Source: Nanobdellota archaeon
GTDB taxonomy: Archaea > Nanobdellota > Nanobdellia > Pacearchaeales > GW2011-AR1
Reading direction: 5' to 3'
DNA: 64,000 bases
NCBI GenBank assembly: GCA_023397215.1
Contig: JAEWUG010000032.1
Coordinates: 1,514-65,513 of the forward strand
Below are positions 9,669-62,531 of the stretch, one piece after another; the first letter of the stretch is position 1, and every line of letters begins with the position of its first letter. The translations under genes and the position numbers were made by a program. The notes under the pieces were generated by a model. It saw only the letters and a program-made list of their open reading frames with translations, did no database searches and was not told the origin of the DNA.

Positions 9669-11978
9669 ATGGCAAAAATAGATGAAACTAATAAAATTGA
9701 AAGATTAAGAATTGTAGAAGCATTGCAAGATGATGCCTATAAAGGTATTGCTAGAGTTGACCCTCCTGTTATGAGAAAATTAGGTTTGGATAGAGGAGAT
9801 ATTATTTCTATTAAAGGAGAAAGAGAAAGTTATTGTATTGTTGATTATGGTTATCCTGCAGATAGTGGAGAAAATATTATTAGAATTGACGGAATAACTA
9901 GAAAAAATATTAAATCAGGAATTGGGGAAAATGTAGAAATTAAAAAAGTAAATAATATTTCTGAAGCCAAAAAAATAACAATTGCACCTTTACAACAAGG
10001 GATTAGTATAAAAGGAGATCCTGAAGCAATTAAAACAAGTTTATTAGGTAAACCATTTAACAAAGGAGATATATTTGTTTTAGGAAACTTAGGAAAAAGA
10101 AGAGATTTAATGGGAGAAGACTTCCAAGACTTTTTTAGTGATATTTTTAATCAAATGGGTATTGGAATGCCTGTTGGAATGTCTCAGATTCGTTTTATTG
10201 TTGTTTCTACAAATCCTTCTGTTCCTTGTATTATTAGTGAAAATACTTCAATTACATTAAGCAATAAATTAGTTGATATTGAAGAAGAAAAAATTCCTTC
10301 AATTACATACGAAGATATCGGAGGTTTAAAACAAGAAGTTAAAAAAGTTAGGGAAATGGTAGAATTACCTCTAAAAAGACCAGAAATATTCTCAAGATTA
10401 GGAATTGAACCTCCAAAAGGTGTTTTATTATATGGACCCCCTGGAACAGGAAAGACTTTACTTGCAAGGGCTGTTGCTAATGAAAGTGAAGCAAACTTTA
10501 TGGTAATTAATGGGCCTGAAATTATGAGTAAGTTTTATGGAGAAAGTGAAAAAAAGATTAGAGAAATATTTGATGAAGCCCAAAAAAACTCGCCTTCAAT
10601 TATTTTTATTGACGAAATAGATGCAATTGCACCAAAAAGAGAAGAAGGTAATGGTGATGTTGAAAAAAGAGTTGTAAGTCAATTATTAACAATGATGGAC
10701 GGTTTACAATCAAGAGGAAAAGTTATTGTAATAGGTGCAACTAACAGACCAAATGCAATTGACCCTGCACTTAGAAGACCTGGTAGATTTGATAGAGAAG
10801 TAGAATTATCTGTCCCAGGAAAAGAAGGAAGAGTTCAAATTTTAAAAATACACACAAGAAATATGCCTTTAACAAAAGGTATTAGTTTAGAAGAACTTGC
10901 TAATAAAACCCATGGTTTTGTTGGAGCTGATTTAGAAAGTTTAAGTAAAGAAGCTGCAATGAGTGTTCTAAGAAGAAATGTTCATAAATTTAATTTAGAA
11001 GAAGATAAAGAAATTCCAAAAGAAGTATTAGATGAATTAATTATTACAAAAAAAGACTTTGATGAAGCATTAAAAGTTGTAAGGCCTTCTGCAATGAGAG
11101 AAGTATTAGTTGAAACTCCAGATATTAATTGGGATGATATTGGTGGAATTAAAGAAGTTAAACAAGAATTAAAAGAGGCAGTAGAATGGCCATTAAAATT
11201 TCCTCAAAATTTCAAAAGATTAGGTATTAGACCACCAAAAGGTATTTTATTATATGGACCTCCAGGAACAGGAAAAACATTACTTGCTAAAGCAGTTGCT
11301 AAAGAAAGTGAATCAAATTTTATTCAAATCAAAGGACCATCTTTACTAAGTATGTGGGTTGGAAAAAGTGAAGAAGGAGTTAGAAAAATATTTGAAAGAG
11401 CTAGACAAGTTTCTCCTTGTGTTATATTTTTTGATGAAATAGATGCACTTGCTGGAAAAAGAGGTGTTATGAGTAGTTCGACAAAAGTAACCGAGAATGT
11501 TTTAAATCAATTATTAGCTGAAATGGATGGTATTGAAGATTTAAATAATGTTATTGTTCTTGGTGCAACTAATAGACCCGATATATTAGATCCTGCATTA
11601 ATGAGACCTGGTAGATTTGATAGAATAATTTATGTTTCTATACCAAATAAAGAAGAAAGATTAGATATTTTGAAAATACACACAAAAAATATGCCTATTA
11701 AAAATAAAGAAAGGATAATTGAAGATTTATCAGATAAAACAGAAGGTTATACTGGTGCTGATTTAGAAAATTTAGTAAGAGAAGCAGGTATGATTGCATT
11801 AAGAGATGACATTGAAACAAAAGAAGTTACAAAAAATAATTTTGACAAGGCAATGGAAAAAGTACTTCCAAGTGTAAGCCAGTCTGACGAAGAAAGATAT
11901 AAACAAATTGAGAAAAAATATCTTAGAAGTGCTTTATCTACATTAGATTATAATAATCAAAAGAGTTATTTAGCATAA
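9669..11978 (+). CDS. cdc48: Cdc48/VCP-like double AAA+ ATPase
   Basis: N-terminal double-psi barrel followed by two AAA modules with Walker A motifs [22 protein letters not shown] and [22 protein letters not shown], and two DExx boxes ([10 protein letters not shown] and [10 protein letters not shown]). Confidence 0.9.
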
Positions 11979-50861: not shown

Positions 50862-52253
50862 TTATTCTTTTTTTAATATTTTTTCTAATTCTTCTTTAGC
50901 TAATTTAAAATCAGCTCTTCTTTGACTTTGTTTCATTACTTGACCAATTAAAAAGTTTAAAGAATTTTCTTGACCTTCTTTGTAATCTTGAACTGCTTTT
51001 GGATTTTGTTCTATTACTTTTTGACAAATATTTTGAACAGCATCTTCTGCAATTTTAAATATATCTTTTTTTTCTTTAATAGAAAAACTTTTAGGAATAA
51101 AATCATTCATTATTTGTTTTGCTTTTAATGTTGTTAACTCTTTTTTCTCTACTAAATTAATTAACTCAGCTAAATGATTTGGTTTTATATCTATATCTGA
51201 GTCATCTAATGTTTTTTTATTATAATTTAAAATTCTTAATAATTCTATTGTAATCCAACTTAAATTCTTTTTAACATCTATTCCTTCTTTAGCCAACTCT
51301 TCAAAAAATTCAACTAATTCTAAATTTTTCATAATTATTTGTGCATCACTTTTTTCAACTTCATAAATCAAAAGAAGTTTCTTTAATTTTTCATCAGGAG
51401 TTTCAGGTAATGCTTTTTTTATTTCTTGAACAAAATCAGAGTTTAATTTCATAATTGGTAAATCTGGATCAGGAATAAATCTATAATCTTGAGCATTTTC
51501 TTTTGTTCTCATTCTAATTGTCTTCCCTTTTGATTCATCATATCTACGAGTTTCTTGTATTATTTTTTCATTATTTTTATTTGCATCTAATTGACGAGAA
51601 ATTTCATAGTTAATTGCTTTTTGTATCTTATCTAAAGAATTTAAATTTTTTATTTCAACTCTTTCTCCATATGTTGAAATATTTACATCAACTTTGATTC
51701 CGGCATTTTTCTTTATTGCTTTAATATAACTTAAACTTAAAATGAAACTTTTTAACCAAGAAATAACTTCATCAACTTTTTTAAAATCTGGAGCTGTGAC
51801 TACTTCTACTAAAGGTAAACCACTTCTATTATAATTAATATGACCATTTTCAGGATTCCATTGTGCAGGATCTTCTTCTAAATGACATTCCCAAATATTT
51901 ATACCTTTAAAATTACCTTTATATGCTGGAAAAGAACAATGTGCTCCAGAAATAGTATTTTGAAATCCTTTAGGTAAATCAGGCCAATTATAATGTTTTC
52001 TTTGAAAAATTAAATCTTTTTCTTCTTCAATTTTACAATTTAATATCAAACTAACTTGAATTAATTTTTTTATTGCTTCCTTATTCACTAACATTGGTTT
52101 ACTTCCCGGTGTTCCTGTACAAATGGGGCAAATATTTGAATTAGGTTCATCAAATTCAAAAGTAGAACATTTACAAAATAATTTTTCTTGAGTATTTAAG
52201 TAACAATGAATTTCTAAACCAATTTTTAAAGGATGTTGTGTTATTAATTCCAT
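50862..52253 (-). CDS. gatB: Asp/Glu-tRNA amidotransferase subunit B (GatB)
   Basis: GLEIHCYLNTQEKLFCKC N-terminal signature, 463 aa, and a C-terminal GatB/YqeY domain. Confidence 0.8.
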   Translation of the reverse strand: MELITQHPLKIGLEIHCYLNTQEKLFCKCSTFEFDEPNSNICPICTGTPGSKPMLVNKEAIKKLIQVSLILNCKIEEEKDLIFQRKHYNWPDLPKGFQNTISGAHCSFPAYKGNFKGINIWECHLEEDPAQWNPENGHINYNRSGLPLVEVVTAPDFKKVDEVISWLKSFILSLSYIKAIKKNAGIKVDVNISTYGERVEIKNLNSLDKIQKAINYEISRQLDANKNNEKIIQETRRYDESKGKTIRMRTKENAQDYRFIPDPDLPIMKLNSDFVQEIKKALPETPDEKLKKLLLIYEVEKSDAQIIMKNLELVEFFEELAKEGIDVKKNLSWITIELLRILNYNKKTLDDSDIDIKPNHLAELINLVEKKELTTLKAKQIMNDFIPKSFSIKEKKDIFKIAEDAVQNICQKVIEQNPKAVQDYKEGQENSLNFLIGQVMKQSQRRADFKLAKEELEKILKKE

Positions 52254-52727: not shown

Positions 52728-53528
52728 TTAGTTTGAATTTGATTCATTATTTAATTTTTGTGTATTTAAGCATTGTTGAATTGCTTTTTCATGAATACTT
52801 GCTTTTGCTAAAATAAAATCAATTGTTTCTGTATTGAAATAACTTAATTCAATTGCAAAAGGTAAAGCTCTTGAAAAAGCATACTCTAAATCTTGAATTG
52901 TCTTCTCTTTATCAATTTTAATATTATTATAAACTTTACCATTCATATAAGCAGCTATTGGTTCTATTCCTATTTCAAAAGGGATTATTTCTAATTTAGC
53001 CATTATTGAAGCTAACTTTTGATTTATCTTATCTCCTTTTTTAACTATAACTTTGTCTTGCATAATAGAAATTTTACCACTTTCTACTTTGGGTATAAGA
53101 CCAACAGCGGATAATGCTGAAATATCTGGACCTGGAACCAAACTAGTTGGACCTGCTTTAACAACAATATCTTCTGGAGCAATATCCCCTTCTTTTGCTT
53201 TTGCAGGACTTTTATTTTCAGATAATAAATTTGAAATAATAAATGCATCTTCTTCTGAAAATAACATTGCAGTAGAATCTTGAACATAAGGAACTAATTC
53301 ATGTAATTCTTGAATTCCACAATGATCTAATGCAAAATCAATTAAACTTTTTTTTGTAACTTTTATTTTAGCATTTTCTCTTAATTTTTTTTTCAAATCT
53401 TGAAATTGTGCAGAAGGTAATCCTTTTATTGAAACTACCATCACTGTTTTTTTCTTCATTAAATTTGACAAATCTTTTACAAGAGATTTTTTAAATTCGC
53501 TAACATGATGAGATTCTTTACCTTTCAT
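52728..53528 (-). CDS. rpl10: Ribosomal protein L10 (uL10 / P0)
   Basis: Position immediately upstream of P1 and downstream of L1; the 266-aa size and N-terminal region fit the P0 family. Confidence 0.7.
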   Translation of the reverse strand: MKGKESHHVSEFKKSLVKDLSNLMKKKTVMVVSIKGLPSAQFQDLKKKLRENAKIKVTKKSLIDFALDHCGIQELHELVPYVQDSTAMLFSEEDAFIISNLLSENKSPAKAKEGDIAPEDIVVKAGPTSLVPGPDISALSAVGLIPKVESGKISIMQDKVIVKKGDKINQKLASIMAKLEIIPFEIGIEPIAAYMNGKVYNNIKIDKEKTIQDLEYAFSRALPFAIELSYFNTETIDFILAKASIHEKAIQQCLNTQKLNNESNSN

Positions 53529-53529
53529 T

Positions 53530-54165
53530 TTATTTTGTTTTATTATCTAAAAATTTAATTGGTTTTGACATTGTCAATTTTACATAAGCATTTTTTATAT
53601 TTTCTTTTCCTCGAGGTAAATTTTTTTCTAAACCTATCAATAAAGCTTCTATATTTTCAATTAAATCTTTATCAGACATGTTTTCTTTACCTACAATTAA
53701 TTTAATACTTGCTTCCTTATTTCTTACACGAACTAAACTTTTCATTTTTTCTGCTGTTTCTTTTATTGTAGTTTCATCTTCTTTTGAAATGATTCCTCCT
53801 TGTGGAGAGGGCATTTTAGCTAATGGACCAAACACTCTTCCAAATTTTGAAGCAATTTTACTCATTAAAGGAGGTGTTGCAATAAAAAAATCAAAAGAAT
53901 TAGCAAGTTTTTTAATATCTTTTTTATCTTTATATTTTACAAAATCATCTTCTGTTAAACAAGGAATTGTCTTTATTTTCTTTGTTAAAAATGCACAAAC
54001 TTTTTTTTCAGAAGGATGTGGAACTTTTAAGAAAGTGTTTAATGCTTCTTTTCGAACATCATAATAGTGCAAATTCACAATCAGATCTACAGATTGAACA
54101 AACTTTCTTTTCTTTTCCTTTCTTAATTCTTTAAATGCTTCTTGTAATTTGTTTTCTTCAGCCAT
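53530..54165 (-). CDS. rpl1: Ribosomal protein L1 (uL1)
   Basis: N-terminus AFKELRKEKKRKFVQSVDLIVNL and the 211-aa size fit uL1; conserved L1-L10-L12 order. Confidence 0.8.
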   Translation of the reverse strand: MAEENKLQEAFKELRKEKKRKFVQSVDLIVNLHYYDVRKEALNTFLKVPHPSEKKVCAFLTKKIKTIPCLTEDDFVKYKDKKDIKKLANSFDFFIATPPLMSKIASKFGRVFGPLAKMPSPQGGIISKEDETTIKETAEKMKSLVRVRNKEASIKLIVGKENMSDKDLIENIEALLIGLEKNLPRGKENIKNAYVKLTMSKPIKFLDNKTK

Positions 54166-56594: not shown

Positions 56595-56885
56595 TTACCA
56601 AGATATTGTTTTTGGTTCTCTTTTAACATACTGAAATTCTTCTTGTAATTCATATATTTCAATACTTGTTTCAACTTGATCATCAAAATATCTTAATTGA
56701 TATTCTCTGTTATTTTCTGGATTAAAAAATTCAATTATCATTTCATTAGTATCCTTATGAGCAATGAATAAATAATGGGAATCTATTATCATTTTTTTAT
56801 CATTTATAAAAATAAAATCATTATTTTTTAATTCTTTAATTGGCTTACTCATTTTTGTAATTTTTAATTCACCTACCATAAACAA
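56595..56885 (-). CDS. Hypothetical small protein
   Basis: 96-aa ORF immediately downstream of, and co-oriented with, the receptor-like gene. Confidence 0.3.
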   Translation of the reverse strand: MFMVGELKITKMSKPIKELKNNDFIFINDKKMIIDSHYLFIAHKDTNEMIIEFFNPENNREYQLRYFDDQVETSIEIYELQEEFQYVKREPKTISW

Positions 56886-56891
56886 ATATAA

Positions 56892-58952
56892 TTAAACTCG
56901 ATTTAATAAATCTTTTAGTTTTTCTTGATTTTTAGATTTATCTTTTAATTCTTCTAATTTATAAAAATCTTTTCCTTGAAATGTTAATCTTTGTTCTTTT
57001 TTTATTTCTCCTAAGTTTTTTCTCCGCATTTTTGATGTTAATAAAACATCTTGTTTAGATAAAGTAGATGTCTTTTGAGCTAAACTAATTGTATCTTCTA
57101 TTGTTGTATACTCTAGAATATTTTGTTTTCTTAATGAAACTAAATCACCATTATTAACACCAATACCAAAGTCTATTTTATTTGAATGTGTTTTATTAAA
57201 TTCGTTTAATAATCTTAATAATTTTAAACTAGAAGATAAGGCTAAAGAATCATTATTAAATGTTTTTGTAATTAAAGGTGAAAAAATTAAGTTAATAAAA
57301 TTCTCTTTAGAGTCTATAGCTACCTTACCCTCTGTTGAATCTTTGATTATTTGATTTAATTGTTCTAATGTAGATTCACCAAGGTTTTCTAAATTTTTTA
57401 GATGAATAGATATTATTGTAGACATAATTTTATCTGCATTTAGAACTAAACTAGACTTTGCAATATAAGCTGTTGAATTAGGTGTTAATTTAATAATTCC
57501 TTCATTATCTTTTTTTTGTTGATTTTCTCTTTTTAGTGGTTTAGTTAATATAAACCATTTTTTGATTTTATTAAAAAAGTGTTCATTAGAATCAGATTTC
57601 ATTTTTTTATTTGAATCTTTTTTAATAGAACTGCCACCTTTAGAAATCTTATACCTAAAATAAAAGATTAATCCCACAATTAAAATTATTAATAATATCC
57701 ATAAAAAAGAAAAATTTAAATTTATCCAGGATACTTTATTTTCATCTTTAATATCAATAGCATTTCCTGTTAAAAAAGCTGAACGTTGTATTGTTTCTCC
57801 ATTATTAGAATCTATTGCAATATCATACTCTCCGTCAGGTGCATAAAGAGTATATGTTTTTTGTTCTCCTTGTTTTAAAGAAATATCTAATTTTTTTATT
57901 TCTCCTCCAATTGACAAATTTAAAATATTATTATAAGGAGAATTACCATTATTTTTTATAATTAAGGTACTTCCTTCGAAAAAATAATCTAATTTAGGTA
58001 ATTCTTTTATTTCAAAATTTGCTTCTTTAGAGAGTAAATTTTCATAAGCACTATATACCTTCCAAATACCTGCTGAAGAATTTGAACTTGTATTAATTTC
58101 GAAAAATTCATTGGATTGGATATTATAAGAAAAAGATTCTTTTGTTGGTGATTCTAATGTAACTAAAATTTCATTGTTAATATTATTATTTGTTTGATCT
58201 AAAAGCGAAGGATAAATTCTTATTTGCTCTTCTGGATTTATTTCATTTTTTGAGATGCTTATTTCTAATTTAGTGGGTTTTTGATTTATATAAAACTCTA
58301 ATTGAATATTATCTTGGTTTAAAATAGAAGAATTTTTATCTAAGTCATAAATTTTTATGTTCAATTTATGATTCCCAAATTTTTGGTTTTCTACAATATT
58401 TATTTTTAATTGCGAAATCCCCTGAATAATTTCTCCTTTAGTTGAATAAAAGTTAGAAGTTTCATAAAAACCATTTAAAAGTTCATTATTCATTTTATTT
58501 GCTTGAATATCTAAGATTATTTCTTCACCAGGATTATATTTTTGTTTATTTAATTTAACATTTAAATCTAATTTTTCAGTGATTTTGAATTCTTTTGTTT
58601 TTGCTTGTAGTGAATTTATTGAAGCTATAATTTTACATGTTCCAACAATCTCTTGAAGATTATTTATTTCTAAATCTTCTTTTGTTAAAGTTTTATAAGG
58701 TATAGAATAATACTGATCTCTATCTTTAGAAAAAGCCCTTGCAGAAATTCTCAATAAATTATAATTTTGGTTATTACAAACAAGATCTATATTCAAATTT
58801 CCTTCATCAGAACCTCTAATTCCTTCTAATGAAACATATAATTTATCACCCAAATTATAAACTTCTTCAGGTTCACTAATTGTTAATTGAGCTAATGAAA
58901 AATTAATTAAAAAAATAAGACTTAAGAATGTAAATATTAATTTGTATTTCAT
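56892..58952 (-). CDS. Single-pass membrane receptor-like protein: signal peptide, about 400-aa extracellular beta-rich domain, TM, cytoplasmic class III nucleotidyl cyclase-like (possibly degenerate) domain
   Basis: Signal peptide MKYKLIFTFLSLIFLINFSLAQ; TM helix WINLNFSFLWILLIILIVGLIFYF. Cytoplasmic segments KIDFGIGVNNGDLV and EYTTIEDTISLAQKTS resemble the cyclase-homology R[IV]GIHTGxV and YDVWGDTVNxASRMES signatures, but the first metal-binding Asp position seems to be replaced. Confidence 0.4.
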   Translation of the reverse strand: MKYKLIFTFLSLIFLINFSLAQLTISEPEEVYNLGDKLYVSLEGIRGSDEGNLNIDLVCNNQNYNLLRISARAFSKDRDQYYSIPYKTLTKEDLEINNLQEIVGTCKIIASINSLQAKTKEFKITEKLDLNVKLNKQKYNPGEEIILDIQANKMNNELLNGFYETSNFYSTKGEIIQGISQLKINIVENQKFGNHKLNIKIYDLDKNSSILNQDNIQLEFYINQKPTKLEISISKNEINPEEQIRIYPSLLDQTNNNINNEILVTLESPTKESFSYNIQSNEFFEINTSSNSSAGIWKVYSAYENLLSKEANFEIKELPKLDYFFEGSTLIIKNNGNSPYNNILNLSIGGEIKKLDISLKQGEQKTYTLYAPDGEYDIAIDSNNGETIQRSAFLTGNAIDIKDENKVSWINLNFSFLWILLIILIVGLIFYFRYKISKGGSSIKKDSNKKMKSDSNEHFFNKIKKWFILTKPLKRENQQKKDNEGIIKLTPNSTAYIAKSSLVLNADKIMSTIISIHLKNLENLGESTLEQLNQIIKDSTEGKVAIDSKENFINLIFSPLITKTFNNDSLALSSSLKLLRLLNEFNKTHSNKIDFGIGVNNGDLVSLRKQNILEYTTIEDTISLAQKTSTLSKQDVLLTSKMRRKNLGEIKKEQRLTFQGKDFYKLEELKDKSKNQEKLKDLLNRV

Positions 58953-59003: not shown

Positions 59004-60404
59004 TTAACCTTTAATCACTGCTAAAGGAACTAATTTTGCTATCTTCTTTGAAAGATTTAACTTATCACAAACATTTACTACTTCTTCAATATCTTTATAT
59101 GCTTCGGGGGCTTCATCAATAATATCTTTAATAGAATTTGTTTTTAATTGAATATTTTTTTTATTTAAATCATTTAAAATTTTTTGTGGACTTAAAATTT
59201 GTTTTGCTTTGGTTCTACTTAAAACTCTTCCAGCACCGTGAGCTGTTGTAGAAAAAGAAAGTTCTTCACTTTTATTGGTTCCTACTAAAATATATGACGC
59301 AGTTCCCATTGATCCGGGGATTATAACTGGTTGACCTGTATTTTGATATTTAAATGGTAATTTTTTTGATGGGCCAAAACTTCTAGTTGCACCTTTTCTA
59401 TGAATACAAACAGTTTTAATTTGATTATTTATTTTATGTTCTTCAAATTTAGCAATATTATGACAAATATCATAAAGTAAAACATTTTTAGAATTTGGAA
59501 ACTCGGCTTGTAAAATTTCTCTAATTTTATGCATAATTATTTGTCTATTTGCAAATGCAAAATTTACTGCACAATTCATTGCAGAAAGATAATCTTTAGC
59601 TAATTTTGAATCTAATTCTGCATAAGCTAATTGTTTATCTTTTAATTCTGGATTTTGCATTTTTTGAATATAATCTGAAGCAATTTGATGGCCTAATCCT
59701 CTAGAGCCACAATGGATCATAATACAGATGTTATCTTTTTCTAAATCAAAAACATTTGCAATTTTAGAATCAAATATTTCTGAGATTTTTTGAATTTCAA
59801 TAAAGTGATTACCAGAACCTAATGTTCCTAATTGAGGTTTCCCTCTTTTTTTTGCTCTTAATGAAACTTTAGAAGGATCTGCATTTTTTATTTTTCCATT
59901 TTCTTCACAATATTCCAAATCTTGTGCTATTCCAAATCCTTTTTTGATAGCATATTCTGCACCATAAACCAAATAATTATCAAGTTCTTTTTCATCTAAT
60001 TTTAAATTATGTTCTTGACCTAACCCTGATGGGATTTTATTGTAAATTTGATTTAGAATTTCTTGTTTTTTTAATAAAAATTCTTTTTCTTTAATGTTTG
60101 TTAATAAAACTCTAACACCACAATTAATATCAAAACCTACTCCTCCAGGAGAAACAATACCTTTTTCTAAATCAAAAGCAGCAACACCACCAATACAAAA
60201 ACCATAACCTTCATGAATATCGGGCATTGCAAGAGAATAATTAATTATTCCAGGTAATTTTGAAACATTAACTACTTGATTTAAACTATTATCTTCTTTA
60301 ATTTTATCTAAAATTTTTTTTGATGCAAATATCCTACAAGGTACATTCATATCATCTTGTTTTTCTATTTCCCAAATAAAGTCATTAATTTTTGTTATAT
60401 TCAT
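59004..60404 (-). CDS. rtcB: RNA-splicing ligase RtcB
   Basis: SPGGVGFDINCGVRVL, GSRGLGHQIASDY and TTAHGAGRV conserved metal/GMP-binding motifs. Confidence 0.9.
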   Translation of the reverse strand: MNITKINDFIWEIEKQDDMNVPCRIFASKKILDKIKEDNSLNQVVNVSKLPGIINYSLAMPDIHEGYGFCIGGVAAFDLEKGIVSPGGVGFDINCGVRVLLTNIKEKEFLLKKQEILNQIYNKIPSGLGQEHNLKLDEKELDNYLVYGAEYAIKKGFGIAQDLEYCEENGKIKNADPSKVSLRAKKRGKPQLGTLGSGNHFIEIQKISEIFDSKIANVFDLEKDNICIMIHCGSRGLGHQIASDYIQKMQNPELKDKQLAYAELDSKLAKDYLSAMNCAVNFAFANRQIIMHKIREILQAEFPNSKNVLLYDICHNIAKFEEHKINNQIKTVCIHRKGATRSFGPSKKLPFKYQNTGQPVIIPGSMGTASYILVGTNKSEELSFSTTAHGAGRVLSRTKAKQILSPQKILNDLNKKNIQLKTNSIKDIIDEAPEAYKDIEEVVNVCDKLNLSKKIAKLVPLAVIKG

Positions 60405-60441
60405 TTTATTTTAAAGAAAAAAGATTATATAAGGTTGATTA

Positions 60442-60855
60442 CTAAACATCTAAAACACAAGTAATCAACCAGAAATTATTTTGTTTTTTTACTTCTAAAT
60501 CATTGTATGTTATTGCCTTAACTTTATTATTAATATTGTATTTTTGATTATCGTCTCCTCTGAGAATACATTCTAATTTAAAATTATTCTTATCAATTTT
60601 TAAATTATGTATTGTTTCAGTTATAAAATTTTGAGAATCTAATAAAAATAAAAATTCTTCGAGAAATTTGTATAAAAGATTTTCAAGATTATTTGATTTG
60701 ATTTTTATTTTTTTTAATTTATTAAAACTAATCTTTTTATCTTCTTTTATTATATTTAAAAGGGCATATGCAGAATCTTTAAATGTTTTATTTAAGGTTT
60801 TAGATTTAGCTACAAATTTAATATCAGCAGTATGTTCTAAAAAAGTATAATTCAT
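60442..60855 (-). CDS. Archease (RtcB activator)
   Basis: MNYTFLEHTADIKFVAKSKTLNKTFKDSAYALLNII matches the archease N-terminal signature; 137 aa, immediately downstream of rtcB. Confidence 0.85.
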   Translation of the reverse strand: MNYTFLEHTADIKFVAKSKTLNKTFKDSAYALLNIIKEDKKISFNKLKKIKIKSNNLENLLYKFLEEFLFLLDSQNFITETIHNLKIDKNNFKLECILRGDDNQKYNINNKVKAITYNDLEVKKQNNFWLITCVLDV

Positions 60856-60889
60856 AAATAAAAGAAATTTATTTAATTTAAATAATTAG

Positions 60890-61516
60890 TTATTTTAAGA
60901 CTTTCCCGGTCTCCATATACCATAAATATAAATCTAATCTTGCAAGGTCTAATTTTGTTTTTAATGAAATTTCTTTAAGGATATTTTCTATTTCTAAATA
61001 TTTTCTAGGGGTTAAACTTTTTAATTCTGAAATGAGATTATATTTAACTAAAATATTAATTATATGAAAATCAATTATTGCTAAATTTTTGTAACCAATA
61101 TTCCTTAAAAAATGACTTGCTTCTTTTAATCCTAAACCTTGAATATTTTTTACAATCCAATTTCTAAGAATTTGTTCATTTTTTTCTAATTTTAATAGTT
61201 TAATTAAATCTTTTTTTTTATTTCGTGCAAGAATAATTCTTTTAGCTCTTTGTTCCCAAAAACGATGTCCATATTCTTTTAATTCTAAAGCTAATTTTTG
61301 TTCATTAGAATATAAGAAATCTTTAGATAAATTATTTTGCATTTCTATAGACTTATCTGCCTTAAAATTTGCTGTTAAAAGACAAAAACATAATTCTGAG
61401 AAAATTTTATCTGGACTTTTTATTTTTTCAAATTCTGAAATTCTTTGTTCGATTAAACTTTTGATAGAAGATTTTTTTAAAAAATCAATTTTTAAGATTA
61501 AATCATTCTTTTTCAT
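60890..61516 (-). CDS. ogg: N-glycosylase/DNA lyase, HhH-GPD family (archaeal Ogg-like)
   Basis: HhH motif IQGLGLKEASHFLRNIGYKNLAIIDFHI; 208 aa. Confidence 0.65.
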   Translation of the reverse strand: MKKNDLILKIDFLKKSSIKSLIEQRISEFEKIKSPDKIFSELCFCLLTANFKADKSIEMQNNLSKDFLYSNEQKLALELKEYGHRFWEQRAKRIILARNKKKDLIKLLKLEKNEQILRNWIVKNIQGLGLKEASHFLRNIGYKNLAIIDFHIINILVKYNLISELKSLTPRKYLEIENILKEISLKTKLDLARLDLYLWYMETGKVLK

Positions 61517-61517
61517 A

Positions 61518-61910
61518 TTAATTTAATGTTGTTTCCCAAAGACCATGTAAATTACAATAAGTTCTTATTCTTTCTATATCTACAAGTTTTATATTTGAAA
61601 CAGAAGTTATTGGTTTTTCATCAAAATTTAAAGTCCTTCTAATTGTTTTATTTTTTGTTTGTATTTCAATCCATTCAATATGATGTTCATTTGTCATAGG
61701 ATGTTCTATTTCTCCAACCTGTATTTTAATGCTATCATCTTCTTGAGAAATAATGGGTAAATGTTTTTCTTCTAAACCTTGTTCTTGTTTCTTTTCGATT
61801 AACAAATCCATTTTTTGACCACAACAAACTAATTCTCCAGGTCCTGAATGTAAAACTTCTACGATATTACCACAAACCTTACATTTGTAAATTTCTTTTA
61901 ATTTTGTCAT
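61518..61910 (-). CDS. dfx: Desulfoferrodoxin / superoxide reductase (2Fe type)
   Basis: N-terminal desulforedoxin-like YKCKVCGNIVEV...CCGQKM and C-terminal HPMTNEHHIEWIE centre II motifs. Confidence 0.8.
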   Translation of the reverse strand: MTKLKEIYKCKVCGNIVEVLHSGPGELVCCGQKMDLLIEKKQEQGLEEKHLPIISQEDDSIKIQVGEIEHPMTNEHHIEWIEIQTKNKTIRRTLNFDEKPITSVSNIKLVDIERIRTYCNLHGLWETTLN

Positions 61911-61934
61911 TTTTTATTTTTATTTTTTTAATTA

Positions 61935-62531
61935 TTAATAATTCTCACACAATAATTCATAATGAGCTCTTGGATGTTTACAAGCAGGACATTCTTCAGG
62001 AGCTTGATTACCTTCATGAACATATCCACAATTTCTACATTTCCATCTTACAACAGTATCTTTTTTAAAAACAGAATTTTCCTTAATATTTTTATATATT
62101 TTTCTATATCTTTTTTCATGTTCTTCTTCTACTTCAGCTATTTCCTTAAATGAATCTGCAATCTCTTCAAAACCTTCTTCTCTAGCTATTTTTTCAAATT
62201 CAGGATATAATTCTCCCCATTCTTCTTTTTCTCCGTCTGCAGCAGCTTTCAAATTATCAAGAGTTGTTGAAATTAATCCTGAAGGATATCTTGCTGTAAT
62301 TTCTAAAGCTTCTCCATTTCCTTCTTTTAAATATTTAAAAAAAATCTTAGCATGTTCTTTTTCATTATCTGCTGTTTCATTAAAGATAGCTGAAATTTGT
62401 TCATAACCTTCTTTTTTTGCAACTGATGCAAAATAGGTATATCTATTTCTTGCTTGACTTTCACCAGCAAAAGATTTTAATAAATTTTTTTCTGTTTCAC
62501 TTCCTTTTAATTCCATATGTATAGAATCCAC
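61935..62531 (-). CDS. rbr: Rubrerythrin
   Basis: Ferritin-like diiron ExxH motifs (EKEHAKIFF, EEEHEKRY) and a C-terminal rubredoxin-like CRNCGY...CPACKHP. Confidence 0.85.
   Translation of the reverse strand: MDSIHMELKGSETEKNLLKSFAGESQARNRYTYFASVAKKEGYEQISAIFNETADNEKEHAKIFFKYLKEGNGEALEITARYPSGLISTTLDNLKAAADGEKEEWGELYPEFEKIAREEGFEEIADSFKEIAEVEEEHEKRYRKIYKNIKENSVFKKDTVVRWKCRNCGYVHEGNQAPEECPACKHPRAHYELLCENY

What the first reader, a model, noticed from the sequence alone, without database searches (positions are those of the whole stretch)
56892..58952. Receptor-like membrane protein with an extracellular beta-rich domain and a cytoplasmic class III nucleotidyl-cyclase-like domain
The cytoplasmic 250 residues contain segments that align with the cyclase homology domain: KIDFGIGVNNGDLV versus R[IV]GIHTGxVV, and EYTTIEDTISLAQKTS versus Y(D/T)xWGDTVNxASRxES. 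The position of the first metal-binding Asp motif (F-x-D-I-x-GFT) reads ISIHLKNL, so the domain may be catalytically degenerate (a pseudo-cyclase or sensor) or a divergent cyclase. Membrane-anchored cyclase-domain proteins are unusual in small-genome archaea. A 96-aa ORF follows immediately on the same strand.
Basis: inference. Interest (0 to 1): 0.55.

Follow-up and report, generated by a model that had tools for sequence, protein, structure and literature searches.

The report
DPANN surface receptor with dead cyclase domain
This gene encodes a single-pass membrane protein of tiny symbiotic (DPANN) archaea that carries four immunoglobulin-like "macroglobulin" domains outside the cell and, inside, a well-conserved copy of the adenylyl/guanylyl-cyclase fold that has lost its catalytic residues; it belongs to a large, undescribed family that looks like a receptor cyclase but almost certainly makes no cyclic nucleotide.

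Summary
ORF 56892-58952 (minus strand, 686 aa) encodes signal peptide, about 375 aa of all-beta ectodomain, one TM helix, a Lys-rich linker and a 190-aa C-terminal domain. The window protein alone is sub-threshold for PF00211 (16.2 vs 21.9 bits). However, 22/39 homologs hit PF00211, hhalign against genuine cyclases gives 97 % probability, and a confident AF2 model (pLDDT 88.7) matches only class III cyclase domains in the PDB (top 50, E 1.6e-9).

The domain is catalytically degenerate:
- Metal Asp1 is His.
- Metal Asp2 is Asn.
- The substrate Lys is Asp.
- The transition-state Asn is Ser.
- The alpha1/GFT phosphate loop is deleted.

None of 187 family members keeps a full catalytic set. The domain is nevertheless as conserved as the ectodomain. 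The ectodomain models as four macroglobulin-like beta-sandwiches (pLDDT 91.1) with no thioester or bait region.

The family has at least 454 clusters at 50 % identity and is restricted to Pacearchaeota/Woesearchaeota/Nanoarchaeota. I found no description of it in the literature. Most likely it is a dimeric, non-enzymatic surface receptor or scaffold. It is a new variant of a known kind, of moderate interest.

The parts
56892..58952 (-). Whole gene: 686-aa type I membrane protein (MG-like ectodomain, TM, pseudo-cyclase domain)
   Evidence: ORF list; 40 full-length homologs; at least 454 representative clusters at E<=1e-30
58887..58952 (-). Signal peptide, residues 1-22 (hydrophobic core 3-21, invariant A21, SLA|Q)
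   Evidence: Hydropathy; A21 invariant or nearly so; helix 2-15 in the model
58575..58886 (-). MG-like beta-sandwich D1, residues 23-126; membrane-distal; the most conserved part of the protein; invariant C59/C106 pair, VYNLGD and ISARAFS motifs
   Evidence: AF2 pLDDT 91.1; Foldseek hits to A2M/complement MG arrays; mean pairwise column identity 0.447; invariant columns
58281..58574 (-). MG-like beta-sandwich D2, residues 127-224 (the region that hits Pfam MG2/A2M_BRD)
   Evidence: (MG2 in 23/39 members, best 2.5e-12)
57999..58280 (-). MG/Ig-like beta-sandwich D3, residues 225-318
   Evidence: weak similarity of this region to an S-layer Ig-like domain (8s80)
57756..57998 (-). Beta-sandwich D4, residues 319-399, membrane-proximal, ending in the invariant L394-T395-G396 motif
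   Evidence: conservation 0.428
57657..57728 (-). Single transmembrane helix, residues about 409-432, followed by R433/K435 (positive-inside)
   Evidence: Kyte-Doolittle peak 2.8
57471..57656 (-). Cytoplasmic juxtamembrane linker, residues 433-494, 24 % Lys, poorly conserved; homologs carry an NFTNKSPxVQGLD motif here that is degraded in the window protein
   Evidence: Composition; alignment; conservation 0.30; first 10 modelled residues pLDDT 38
56943..57470 (-). Cyclase-homology-domain (CHD) fold, residues 495-670, catalytically degenerate: H517 (Asp1), D547 (Lys), N551 (Asp2), T616 (Asp/Thr), S623 (Asn), K627 (Arg); alpha1/GFT loop deleted
   Evidence: AF2 pLDDT 88.7; Foldseek top 50 all class III cyclases; hhalign 97 %; residue statistics over 187 sequences
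56895..56942 (-). Family-specific C-terminal amphipathic helix, residues 671-686 (KLKDLLxR, near-invariant R685)
   Evidence: Helix 190-202 of the model; R685 conserved in 162/187
56595..56885 (-). Downstream 96-aa gene: a highly conserved small DPANN protein; adjacent to the target only in the window's sub-clade
   Evidence: 120 homolog clusters at 55-78 % identity; adjacency repeated in L038 and L041; absent from 27 other loci

Best explanation
The gene encodes a type I, single-pass membrane protein specific to DPANN archaea (Pacearchaeota/Woesearchaeota/Nanoarchaeota). A cleaved signal peptide exports a stalk of four macroglobulin/Ig-like beta-sandwich domains. The membrane-distal domain D1, with a conserved cysteine pair, is the most conserved part of the protein and presumably binds a conserved extracellular partner. 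One TM helix and a flexible, Lys-rich linker connect the stalk to a cytoplasmic domain with the class III cyclase fold, probably descended from a bacterial class IIIb-type cyclase because it keeps the Thr at the second substrate position. This domain has lost both metal-binding aspartates, the substrate lysine, the transition-state asparagine and the alpha1 phosphate-binding segment. It therefore cannot make cAMP or cGMP by the canonical two-metal mechanism.

Shown here: the topology, both folds, the loss of catalytic residues across the family, and strong purifying constraint on the dead domain.

Inferred: like all cyclase homology domains, it forms a head-to-tail dimer beneath the membrane and so holds two chains together. 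It acts as a non-enzymatic dimerisation and docking module. It may still bind a phosphate-bearing ligand through the retained K519/N520 and K626/K627 cluster at the vestigial pocket. In this view the protein works as a paired surface receptor or scaffold whose output is protein-protein contact, not a second messenger.
For: Topology: two hydrophobic segments only, positive-inside after the TM, and the only two Cys residues lie in the ectodomain.

CHD fold: AF2 pLDDT 88.7, pTM 0.83. Foldseek against the PDB gives class III cyclases for all top 50 hits, E 1.6e-9, probability 1.0, about 190 aligned columns. The domain profile against PDB sequences gives cyclases for 17/19 hits. hhalign against six annotated cyclases gives 96.5-97.3 %. 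A 6-sequence HMM of genuine CHDs hits 26 family genes directly, best 2e-9. PF00211 matches 22/39 members.

Degeneracy: the hhalign register gives H517, D547, N551, T616, S623 and K627. Over 187 sequences, 0 have a full catalytic set and 0 have Lys/Arg at 547. Only 14 have any acidic residue at 517-521 together with an acidic residue at 551. Asp1-to-Asp2 spacing is 32-37 residues against 44-46 in genuine cyclases. [quoted passage not shown]

Constraint: the CHD has mean pairwise column identity 0.40, against 0.32-0.45 for the ectodomain domains. G602 is invariant in 187/187, N520 is kept in 167/187, and position 627 is basic in 184/187.

Ectodomain: AF2 pLDDT 91.1 with four beta-sandwiches. The top 50 PDB hits are all A2M/C3/C4/C5/CD109/TEP MG arrays. 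Pfam MG2 matches 23/39 members.

Distribution: at least 454 clusters at E<=1e-30. 26 of 27 species-representative loci are from DPANN MAGs.

No second CHD is encoded in the 64-kb window or in 368 kb of homolog flanks.
Against: No biochemical data exist. Dimerisation was not modelled because only monomer prediction is available. The register at beta1 is not certain. A helix-based register would place the conserved N520 at the Asp1 position (Asp in 8/187 members), and Asn or Glu can sometimes ligate metals. About two thirds of members keep Asp/Glu at the second metal position and nearly all keep a basic residue at the Arg position, so residual nucleotide binding or an unconventional chemistry cannot be excluded. 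Active cyclases lacking the Asn are known (Ma1120 with Ala, Rv1900c with His; PMC4215837, PMC4886424). The linker between TM and CHD is not a recognisable coiled-coil transducer. That weakens any allosteric 'receptor' reading and leaves a purely structural role equally possible. The extracellular partner is unknown.
Confidence: 0.6

Rival explanations
1. Purely structural envelope or adhesion protein. The MG-like stalk is a spacer or adhesin in the cell envelope, for example anchoring the S-layer or contacting a host. The dead cyclase domain is only a cytoplasmic plug or dimerisation anchor, with no ligand binding and no signalling output.
For: The family is near-ubiquitous in reduced genomes and mostly single-copy. 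It is embedded among housekeeping genes: a class Ib aaRS in 23/26 loci and ThrRS in 18/26. The linker is flexible, Lys-rich, poorly conserved (0.30) and has no evident coiled-coil transducer. No other signalling domain is present.
Against: A mere anchor would not need conserved polar residues at the vestigial nucleotide pocket: K519, N520 (167/187) and basic 626/627. It would also not need overall constraint equal to that of the ectodomain. The most conserved domain is the distal D1, which is unlike adhesins that track variable hosts.
Confidence: 0.25
2. A divergent but active nucleotidyl cyclase. It would use non-canonical ligands (N520 or a nearby residue, plus D/E/N551) for metal binding and K/R627 for the transition state, so that extracellular binding controls cNMP synthesis as in receptor guanylyl cyclases.
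For: The architecture matches receptor-type cyclases. D/E is found at position 551 in 125/187 members, position 627 is basic in 184/187, and Thr occupies the second substrate position in 123/187, as in class IIIb enzymes. Asn is dispensable in some active cyclases (PMC4215837, PMC4886424). NCBI auto-annotates one member as an adenylate/guanylate cyclase domain protein.
Against: The window protein has neither Asp (H517/N520 and N551). 0/187 members have the substrate Lys/Arg, and only 14/187 have an acidic pair under any register. The alpha1/GFT triphosphate-binding segment is deleted by 7-12 residues. Position 551 varies freely (D/E/N/G/S/K), which is not the behaviour of a catalytic residue. 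The metal aspartates are described as indispensable (PMC4886424).
Confidence: 0.07
3. A C2-like, non-catalytic subunit that forms a heterodimer with a second, Asp-bearing CHD protein encoded elsewhere in the genome. This would mirror mammalian C1/C2 or soluble guanylyl cyclase alpha/beta, giving one active and one degenerate site.
For: It retains the residues that a C2-type subunit contributes in part: Thr616 and a basic residue at 627. It lacks those that a C1-type subunit contributes, the two Asp. Heterodimeric CHDs with one degenerate site are established for mammalian adenylyl cyclase (structures 1azs and 1cjk are among the hits).
Against: It also lacks the Lys and Asn that a C2-type subunit should supply. 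No second CHD was found in the 64-kb window or in 368 kb flanking 36 homolog loci. Whole genomes could not be searched.
Confidence: 0.05

Closest known systems
Receptor-type class III cyclases (membrane guanylyl cyclases such as GC-A, PDB 9bcv; trypanosomal receptor adenylyl cyclases; mycobacterial Rv1625c, PDB 7yz9/4p2f)
   Same: The overall plan is the same: an extracellular ligand-binding domain, a single (or N-terminal) membrane anchor and a cytoplasmic CHD. The CHD fold matches with TM-score 0.6-0.67 over about 185-190 columns.
   Different: The catalytic residues and the alpha1 phosphate loop are lost. There is no recognisable helical transducer between TM and CHD. The ectodomain is an MG/Ig-like array, not a periplasmic-binding-protein-like or 6-TM module. 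The family is archaeal (DPANN).
Bacterial class IIIb adenylyl cyclases (Thr at the second substrate position), e.g. CyaC of Spirulina (1wc0-1wc6), and the rhizobial plasmid cyclases used here as references (L005-L010)
   Same: These are the best sequence and structure matches. They share the YT(A/S)xG(D/N)T(V/I)xxAxR helix with Thr616, the GxxxG strand with invariant G602, and the pre-beta1 'GE' motif.
   Different: The family has H/K/S at Asp1, variable D/E/N/G at Asp2, D/Y/E instead of Lys, and S/T/I/P instead of Asn. It is 7-12 residues shorter between the two Asp positions, and it has an extra conserved C-terminal helix.
Degenerate (pseudo-symmetric) CHD sites and subunits: mammalian adenylyl cyclase C2 (1azs_B, 1cjv_B), soluble guanylyl cyclase beta1 (4ni2_B)
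   Same: These are CHD folds in which part of the catalytic hexad is missing, and which serve as structural or regulatory halves of a dimer. They appear among the hits.
   Different: Those always pair with a complementary catalytic partner within the same protein or complex. Here no partner is evident, and more of the hexad is missing.
Alpha2-macroglobulin / complement C3-C4-C5 / CD109 / TEP thioester-containing proteins
   Same: The ectodomain shares their tandem macroglobulin (MG) beta-sandwich fold. The top 50 PDB hits have E 6e-13 to 3e-10, and Pfam MG2 matches 23/39 members.
   Different: There are only four domains (about 375 aa). There is no thioester domain or CGEQ motif, since the only cysteines are C59 and C106. 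There is no bait region and no CUB or receptor-binding domain. The protein is membrane-anchored with a cytoplasmic domain, so it cannot act as a protease trap.

Membership tests
Class III nucleotidyl cyclase (PF00211, catalytically competent) | Cyclase homology domain fold | tested here: met
   AF2 model pLDDT 88.7. Foldseek against the PDB: top 50 all class III cyclase domains, probability 1.0, E down to 1.6e-9.
Class III nucleotidyl cyclase (PF00211, catalytically competent) | Profile match to PF00211 at or above the curated gathering score | tested here: inconclusive
   The window protein scores 16.2 bits against a cutoff of 21.9, covering only profile positions 78-156. Homology is nevertheless established at family level: 22/39 members match, hhalign gives 97 %, and a genuine-CHD HMM hits 26 family genes.
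Class III nucleotidyl cyclase (PF00211, catalytically competent) | Two metal-binding aspartates (beta1 FxDIxGFT and beta2-beta3 GD) | tested here: not met
   The window protein has H517 (alternative registers L518 or N520) and N551. In the family, position 517 is K/S/N/H, 520 is N in 167/187, and 551 is D92/E33/N32/G15. Only 14/187 have any acidic pair.
Class III nucleotidyl cyclase (PF00211, catalytically competent) | Substrate-specifying pair (Lys or Glu, plus Asp/Thr/Cys/Gly) | tested here: not met
   The first position is D547 (family Y93/D58/E21; 0/187 Lys/Arg). The second position, T616, is retained (T in 123/187), as in class IIIb.
Class III nucleotidyl cyclase (PF00211, catalytically competent) | Transition-state Asn-Arg pair (NxxxR) | tested here: not met
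   The window protein has S623 and K627. In the family the Asn position is S63/T44/I16/P15/N14 and the Arg position is K122/R62. Caveat: Asn is replaced in the active Ma1120 and Rv1900c (PMC4215837, PMC4886424).
Class III nucleotidyl cyclase (PF00211, catalytically competent) | [quoted passage not shown] | tested here: not met
   The model has a single helix (526-540) between beta1 and beta2. hhalign needs an 11-residue gap there. Asp1-to-Asp2 spacing is 32-37 against 44-46. The signature is taken from PMC4886424.
Class III nucleotidyl cyclase (PF00211, catalytically competent) | Head-to-tail dimer with active sites at the interface; cNMP synthesis | not testable with these tools
   Only monomer prediction is available, and there is no biochemistry.
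Receptor-type (single-pass) cyclase architecture | Signal peptide, extracellular domain, one TM, cytoplasmic CHD | tested here: met
   Hydropathy, positive-inside rule and Cys distribution; domain folds.
Receptor-type (single-pass) cyclase architecture | Helical/coiled-coil transducer linking TM to CHD | tested here: inconclusive
   The linker 433-494 is 24 % Lys with conservation 0.30. Homologs carry a Pro/Gly-containing motif (NFTNKSPxVQGLD), and the first modelled residues have pLDDT 38. Residues 433-483 were not modelled.
Alpha2-macroglobulin / thioester-containing protein family | Tandem macroglobulin (MG) domains | tested here: met
   Four beta-sandwiches, pLDDT 91.1. The top 50 PDB hits are A2M/C3/C4/C5/CD109/TEP1. 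MG2 matches 23/39 members.
Alpha2-macroglobulin / thioester-containing protein family | Thioester domain (CGEQ), bait region, about 1,200-1,800 aa multi-domain body | tested here: not met
   The ectodomain is only about 375 aa and the only cysteines are C59 and C106. A2M_BRD is only a weak hit (E 0.03 in the window protein; 4/39 members).

The most novel reading that the evidence does not exclude
The family is a core, lineage-defining cell-surface receptor of Pacearchaeota/Woesearchaeota. Its conserved distal MG domain would recognise a conserved partner, either a host-envelope component or a component of its own envelope. Its pseudo-cyclase dimer would have been repurposed as a nucleotide- or phosphate-ligand sensor or docking platform, possibly for the syntenic KaiC-like ATPase or the small orf96 protein. 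That would couple surface contact to the physiology of these host-dependent archaea without any cyclic-nucleotide second messenger: a new type of pseudoenzyme-based transmembrane signalling in archaea.
Probability: 0.15. Interest if true: 0.75.

Novelty: new variant of a known kind. Interest (0 to 1): 0.45.

Why it matters
Class III cyclases are the universal cAMP/cGMP synthases of bacteria and eukaryotes, but they are barely documented in archaea. A 2023 review of archaeal second messengers notes that the enzymes making archaeal cAMP are still unidentified (PMC10249747). This work shows that the 'adenylate/guanylate cyclase domain' annotation attached automatically to some DPANN proteins should not be read as evidence for cAMP signalling, because the whole family is catalytically dead. 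A pseudo-cyclase that stays under strong constraint in hundreds of lineages with minimal genomes, fused to a conserved macroglobulin-like surface stalk, is also a good candidate for a key envelope or contact protein of DPANN archaea. The mechanisms by which these archaea interact with hosts are largely unknown. The family gives a concrete, testable target for binding assays, pull-downs, cryo-ET labelling and metaproteomics.

Tried and rejected
1. Direct phmmer of the full protein against PDB sequences found nothing. A family profile was needed.
2. NCBIfam gave no meaningful hit. The weak PEF-CTERM match at the TM (E 0.56) was rejected, because a 250-aa domain follows the TM, so this is not a C-terminal sorting signal.
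3. My first by-eye register for metal Asp1 (L518) and a helix-start register (N520) were both replaced by the hhalign register (H517). That register is anchored on the conserved pre-beta1 'GE' motif and has high posterior confidence. All three registers are reported because none supplies a conserved Asp.
5. The full 39-sequence alignment was too diverse for the genome scan. A 10-sequence subset worked.
6. The hypothesis that the 96-aa ORF is an obligate partner was rejected as a general rule: it is absent from 27 homolog loci. It was kept as a sub-clade feature.
7. The window's other neighbours (RtcB, archease, aIF5A, GatE) are not conserved neighbours outside the sub-clade.
8. Literature searches for DPANN plus macroglobulin/cyclase and for degenerate cyclase homology domains found no description of this family. 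The held text of PMC2447327 contained none of the terms sought.
9. The thioester-protein (protease-trap) reading of the MG hits was rejected: there is no thioester and no bait region.
Full report
**1. What is at the coordinates**

The window has about 25 % G+C. It carries archaeal housekeeping genes. Those confirmed by Pfam are GatE, aIF5A, RtcB, archease, an 8-oxoguanine DNA glycosylase (Ogg), desulfoferrodoxin and rubrerythrin. From the ORF translations, without a profile check, I read three adjoining ribosomal-stalk genes as P0, P1 and L1, and the ORF at 50862-52253 as a GatB-like protein.

A 100 %-identical copy of the neighbouring small protein is deposited from a 'Candidatus Nanoarchaeia archaeon' MAG. 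The ORF named in the finding exists exactly as described: 56892-58952, minus strand, ATG start, 686 aa.

Hydropathy gives only two hydrophobic segments. One is an N-terminal signal peptide (about 3-21). The other is a TM helix (about 409-432) followed by Arg/Lys. The only two cysteines (C59, C106) lie in the N-terminal part. This is the topology of a type I membrane protein with about 385 residues outside and about 250 inside.

**2. Is the C-terminal domain a cyclase homology domain?**

On its own the window protein is sub-threshold for Pfam PF00211. The score is 16.2 bits against a gathering score of 21.9, E 0.008, and only profile positions 78-156 are covered. phmmer against PDB sequences finds nothing. 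The case becomes solid at family level:

- The protein has 40 mostly full-length homologs of 650-770 aa at 26-57 % identity. Of 39 scanned, 22 match PF00211 individually, best 3.8e-6.
- A profile of the C-terminal 200 residues finds class III cyclases for 17 of its 19 PDB sequence hits, best Cya2 (2w01) at E 2e-4.
- I retrieved six genuine, annotated cyclase genes from rhizobial and other plasmids. They show every canonical motif. hhalign aligns them to the family domain with 96.5-97.3 % probability over 181-186 columns.
- A small HMM built from those six sequences directly detects 26 family genes in fetched loci, best E 2e-9. It does not detect the window protein, which is one of the more divergent members.
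- An AlphaFold2 model of residues 484-686 is confident (pLDDT 88.7, pTM 0.83). Its 50 best Foldseek matches in the PDB are all class III cyclase catalytic domains: Cya2, CyaC, rhodopsin-guanylyl cyclases, Rv1625c, mammalian C2, GC-A and soluble GC. E reaches 1.6e-9, probability is 1.00, and about 190 columns align.

The domain is a CHD.

**3. Is it catalytically competent?**

Class III cyclases need six residues (PMC4886424, PMC4215837): two metal-binding aspartates described as indispensable, a substrate-specifying pair, and an Asn-Arg pair that stabilises the transition state.

| Canonical residue | Window protein | Family (187 sequences) |
|---|---|---|
| Metal Asp1 | H517 | K106/S22/N15/H13 |
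| Substrate Lys | D547 | Y93/D58/E21; 0 Lys/Arg |
| Metal Asp2 | N551 | D92/E33/N32/G15 |
| Substrate Asp/Thr | T616 | T123/M53 |
| Transition-state Asn | S623 | S63/T44/I16/P15/N14 |
| Transition-state Arg | K627 | K122/R62 |

- No member has the complete set.
- Only 14/187 have any acidic residue at 517-521 together with an acidic residue at 551.
- The segment between the two Asp positions is 32-37 residues, against 44-46 in genuine cyclases.
- hhalign opens an 11-residue gap there. [quoted passage not shown] So the alpha1/'GFT' triphosphate-binding element is missing.

The register at beta1 is the least certain step. Alternative registers place L518 or the conserved N520 opposite Asp1, but none provides a conserved Asp. 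Loss of the Asn alone would not be decisive, since the active Ma1120 has Ala and Rv1900c has His (PMC4215837, PMC4886424). The combined loss of the Asp pair, the Lys and alpha1 is decisive. I conclude with about 85 % confidence that the domain does not cyclise nucleotides.

The retained Thr616 and the YT(S/A)xG(N/D)T(I/V)xxAxR-like helix resemble class IIIb bacterial enzymes. This suggests that origin, which is an inference.

**4. The dead domain is not decaying**

Mean pairwise column identity is 0.40 for the CHD. The four ectodomain modules score 0.45, 0.34, 0.32 and 0.43, and the linker scores 0.30. Conserved positions include:

- G602, invariant in 187/187.
- N567, T562 and N586, each above 97 %.
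- N520, 167/187.
- K508.
- K at position 626 (K162/R18).
- A basic residue at position 627, 184/187.
- R685, in a family-specific C-terminal helix.

Several of these (K519/N520, T616, 626/627) sit at the vestigial nucleotide pocket. That is the main reason to suspect retained ligand binding, which is inferred and untested.

**5. The ectodomain**

An AF2 model of residues 1-399 is confident (pLDDT 91.1). It shows a signal helix followed by four all-beta modules at about 23-126, 127-224, 225-318 and 319-399. Its 50 best PDB matches are all macroglobulin-domain arrays of alpha2-macroglobulin, A2ML1, complement C3/C4/C5, CD109 and insect TEP1, with E 6e-13 to 3e-10. Global TM-scores are low because the inter-domain geometry differs. 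Pfam MG2 matches 23/39 members, best 2.5e-12.

There is no thioester motif, no bait region and no room for them. The protein shares the MG fold but is not a thioester-type protease trap. The membrane-distal D1, with the invariant C59/C106 pair and the VYNLGD and ISARAFS motifs, is the most conserved part of the whole protein. D4 ends in an invariant LTG motif just before the membrane.

**6. Distribution and genomic context**

An exhaustive profile search of 1.84 billion representatives finds 454 clusters at E<=1e-30, 613 at E<=1e-10 and 2,530 at E<=1e-3. The weaker tail presumably includes genuine cyclases, which I did not check. The top 150 are nearly all 650-800 aa, apart from fragments, with the domain at the C-terminus.

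In species-representative genomes, 25 full-length and 2 partial loci were recovered. All but one come from MAGs labelled Pacearchaeota, Woesearchaeota, Nanoarchaeota or 'archaeon'. One of these family loci is a 2-kb contig binned as Izemoplasmatales, probably a binning error. The exception is a weak MG-only match in a Flavivirga genome, which is not a family member. One MAG has two copies.

Most homologs lie in a conserved block:

- A class Ib aminoacyl-tRNA synthetase gene, divergent and immediately upstream, in 23/26 loci.
- A KaiC-like ATPase (PF06745) in 20/26.
- ThrRS in 18/26.
- ThiI in 13/26.

None of these genes is anywhere in the 64-kb window. The window, its closest relative P0002 (57 % identity) and L041 instead show (archease-)RtcB then target. 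The window, L038 and L041 show target then orf96 on the same strand. None of the window's neighbours recurs in the other 27 loci. No neighbouring gene is universally linked, so context gives no firm functional partner.

No second CHD gene is present in the window or in 368 kb of flanks.

**7. How it most likely works**

Shown: export signal, MG stalk, single TM, cytoplasmic CHD fold, loss of the catalytic machinery, and strong constraint.

Inferred from what is established for CHDs, which are obligate head-to-tail dimers with the functional cleft at the interface: the cytoplasmic domains pair beneath the membrane, so the protein is a dimer presenting two MG stalks. The distal D1 binds a conserved extracellular partner. 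The pseudo-cyclase acts as a dimerisation and docking module and possibly as a sensor of a phosphate-bearing ligand. Output is by protein contacts, not by cNMP.

Because the linker looks flexible rather than like a helical transducer, I favour clustering or scaffolding over rigid allosteric transmission. The purely structural rival (0.25) cannot be separated from this with sequence tools. Active-cyclase (0.07) and heterodimer-subunit (0.05) readings are disfavoured for the reasons in section 3 and.

**8. Comparison with known systems, and novelty**

The protein works like, or is built like, a receptor-type class III cyclase. It fails the membership test for a competent cyclase on four of the defining features tested. 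It shares only the MG fold with alpha2-macroglobulin/complement proteins.

Searches of the held literature found no description of an MG-plus-CHD protein or of this DPANN family. A review of archaeal second messengers states that the enzymes producing archaeal cAMP are still unknown and discusses only CYTH-type candidates (PMC10249747). Databases already carry automatic labels for a few members: PF00211 hits, and one 'adenylate/guanylate cyclase domain-containing protein'.

I therefore rate it a new variant of a known kind. It is a lineage-specific, widespread receptor-like pseudo-cyclase of moderate interest (0.45). It has a more exciting but unproven reading as a core DPANN contact receptor (probability about 0.15).

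Noticed in passing
window 56595-56885 (-); also L038:4583-4858, L041:4001-4297, L042:4001-4279, L043:4001-4279: The 96-aa ORF is a real and very strongly conserved small DPANN protein: about 120 clusters, 55-78 % identity, 91-99 aa, no Pfam family. Apart from following the MG-CHD gene in three loci, it sits after ProRS in two loci. It lies next to, or within 3 kb of, the arginine decarboxylase-deoxyhypusine synthase-agmatinase trio in two loci, and it is convergent with aIF5A in the window. This hints at a link to aIF5A hypusination or translation rather than to the target.
   Followed up: partly
L001/L002, L003, L011-L035 (homolog loci), about 1-5 kb upstream of the target homolog: There is a deeply conserved gene block around most family members: ThrRS, a KaiC-like ATPase (PF06745, E 3e-47), then a class Ib aaRS divergent from the MG-CHD gene, with a 160-aa ORF, ThiI and a second class Ib aaRS downstream. 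It persists at about 30-37 % protein identity, yet it is completely absent from the 64-kb window.
   Followed up: partly
window 59004-62531 (-): An upstream co-directional run of rubrerythrin, desulfoferrodoxin, 8-oxoguanine glycosylase (Ogg), archease and RtcB leads into the target gene. The same order is found in the closest relative's contig, L039. It is an oxidative-stress and RNA-repair cluster in a presumably anaerobic DPANN archaeon.
   Followed up: partly
P0005, P0006, P0008 (homologs, C-terminal about 80-95 residues): Three homologs of 759-770 aa carry an extra His/Asn/Ser/Pro-rich low-complexity tail (e.g. '...HNPYARS...HNSHQPSHHTNEHKK') after the conserved C-terminal helix. Its function is unknown and it could be a metal-binding tail.
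   Followed up: no
L027 and L034 (both from MAG CSMAG_2002); L030: One Nanoarchaeota MAG carries two paralogs of the family on different contigs, each with the aaRS/ThrRS/KaiC block nearby. One 2-kb contig carrying a 39 %-identical homolog is binned as an Izemoplasmatales bacterium, which is probably mis-binning.
   Followed up: no
L038:11947-12448 and 10878-11906: Near one homolog (P0004 genome) lie a DisA-type diadenylate cyclase (PF02457 DAC) and a DHH/DHHA1 phosphoesterase, that is, c-di-AMP synthesis and degradation genes. This is relevant if the pseudo-cyclase domain binds a nucleotide messenger.
   Followed up: no
window 53053-53283 (+), 53084-53287 (-), 53678-54064 (+), 60668-60850 (+), 61962-62153 (+): Several ORFs of 60-128 aa lie wholly inside, and antisense or out of frame to, the genes I read as ribosomal P0 and L1, the archease gene and the rubrerythrin gene. 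They look like spurious ORFs typical of AT-rich DNA.
   Followed up: no
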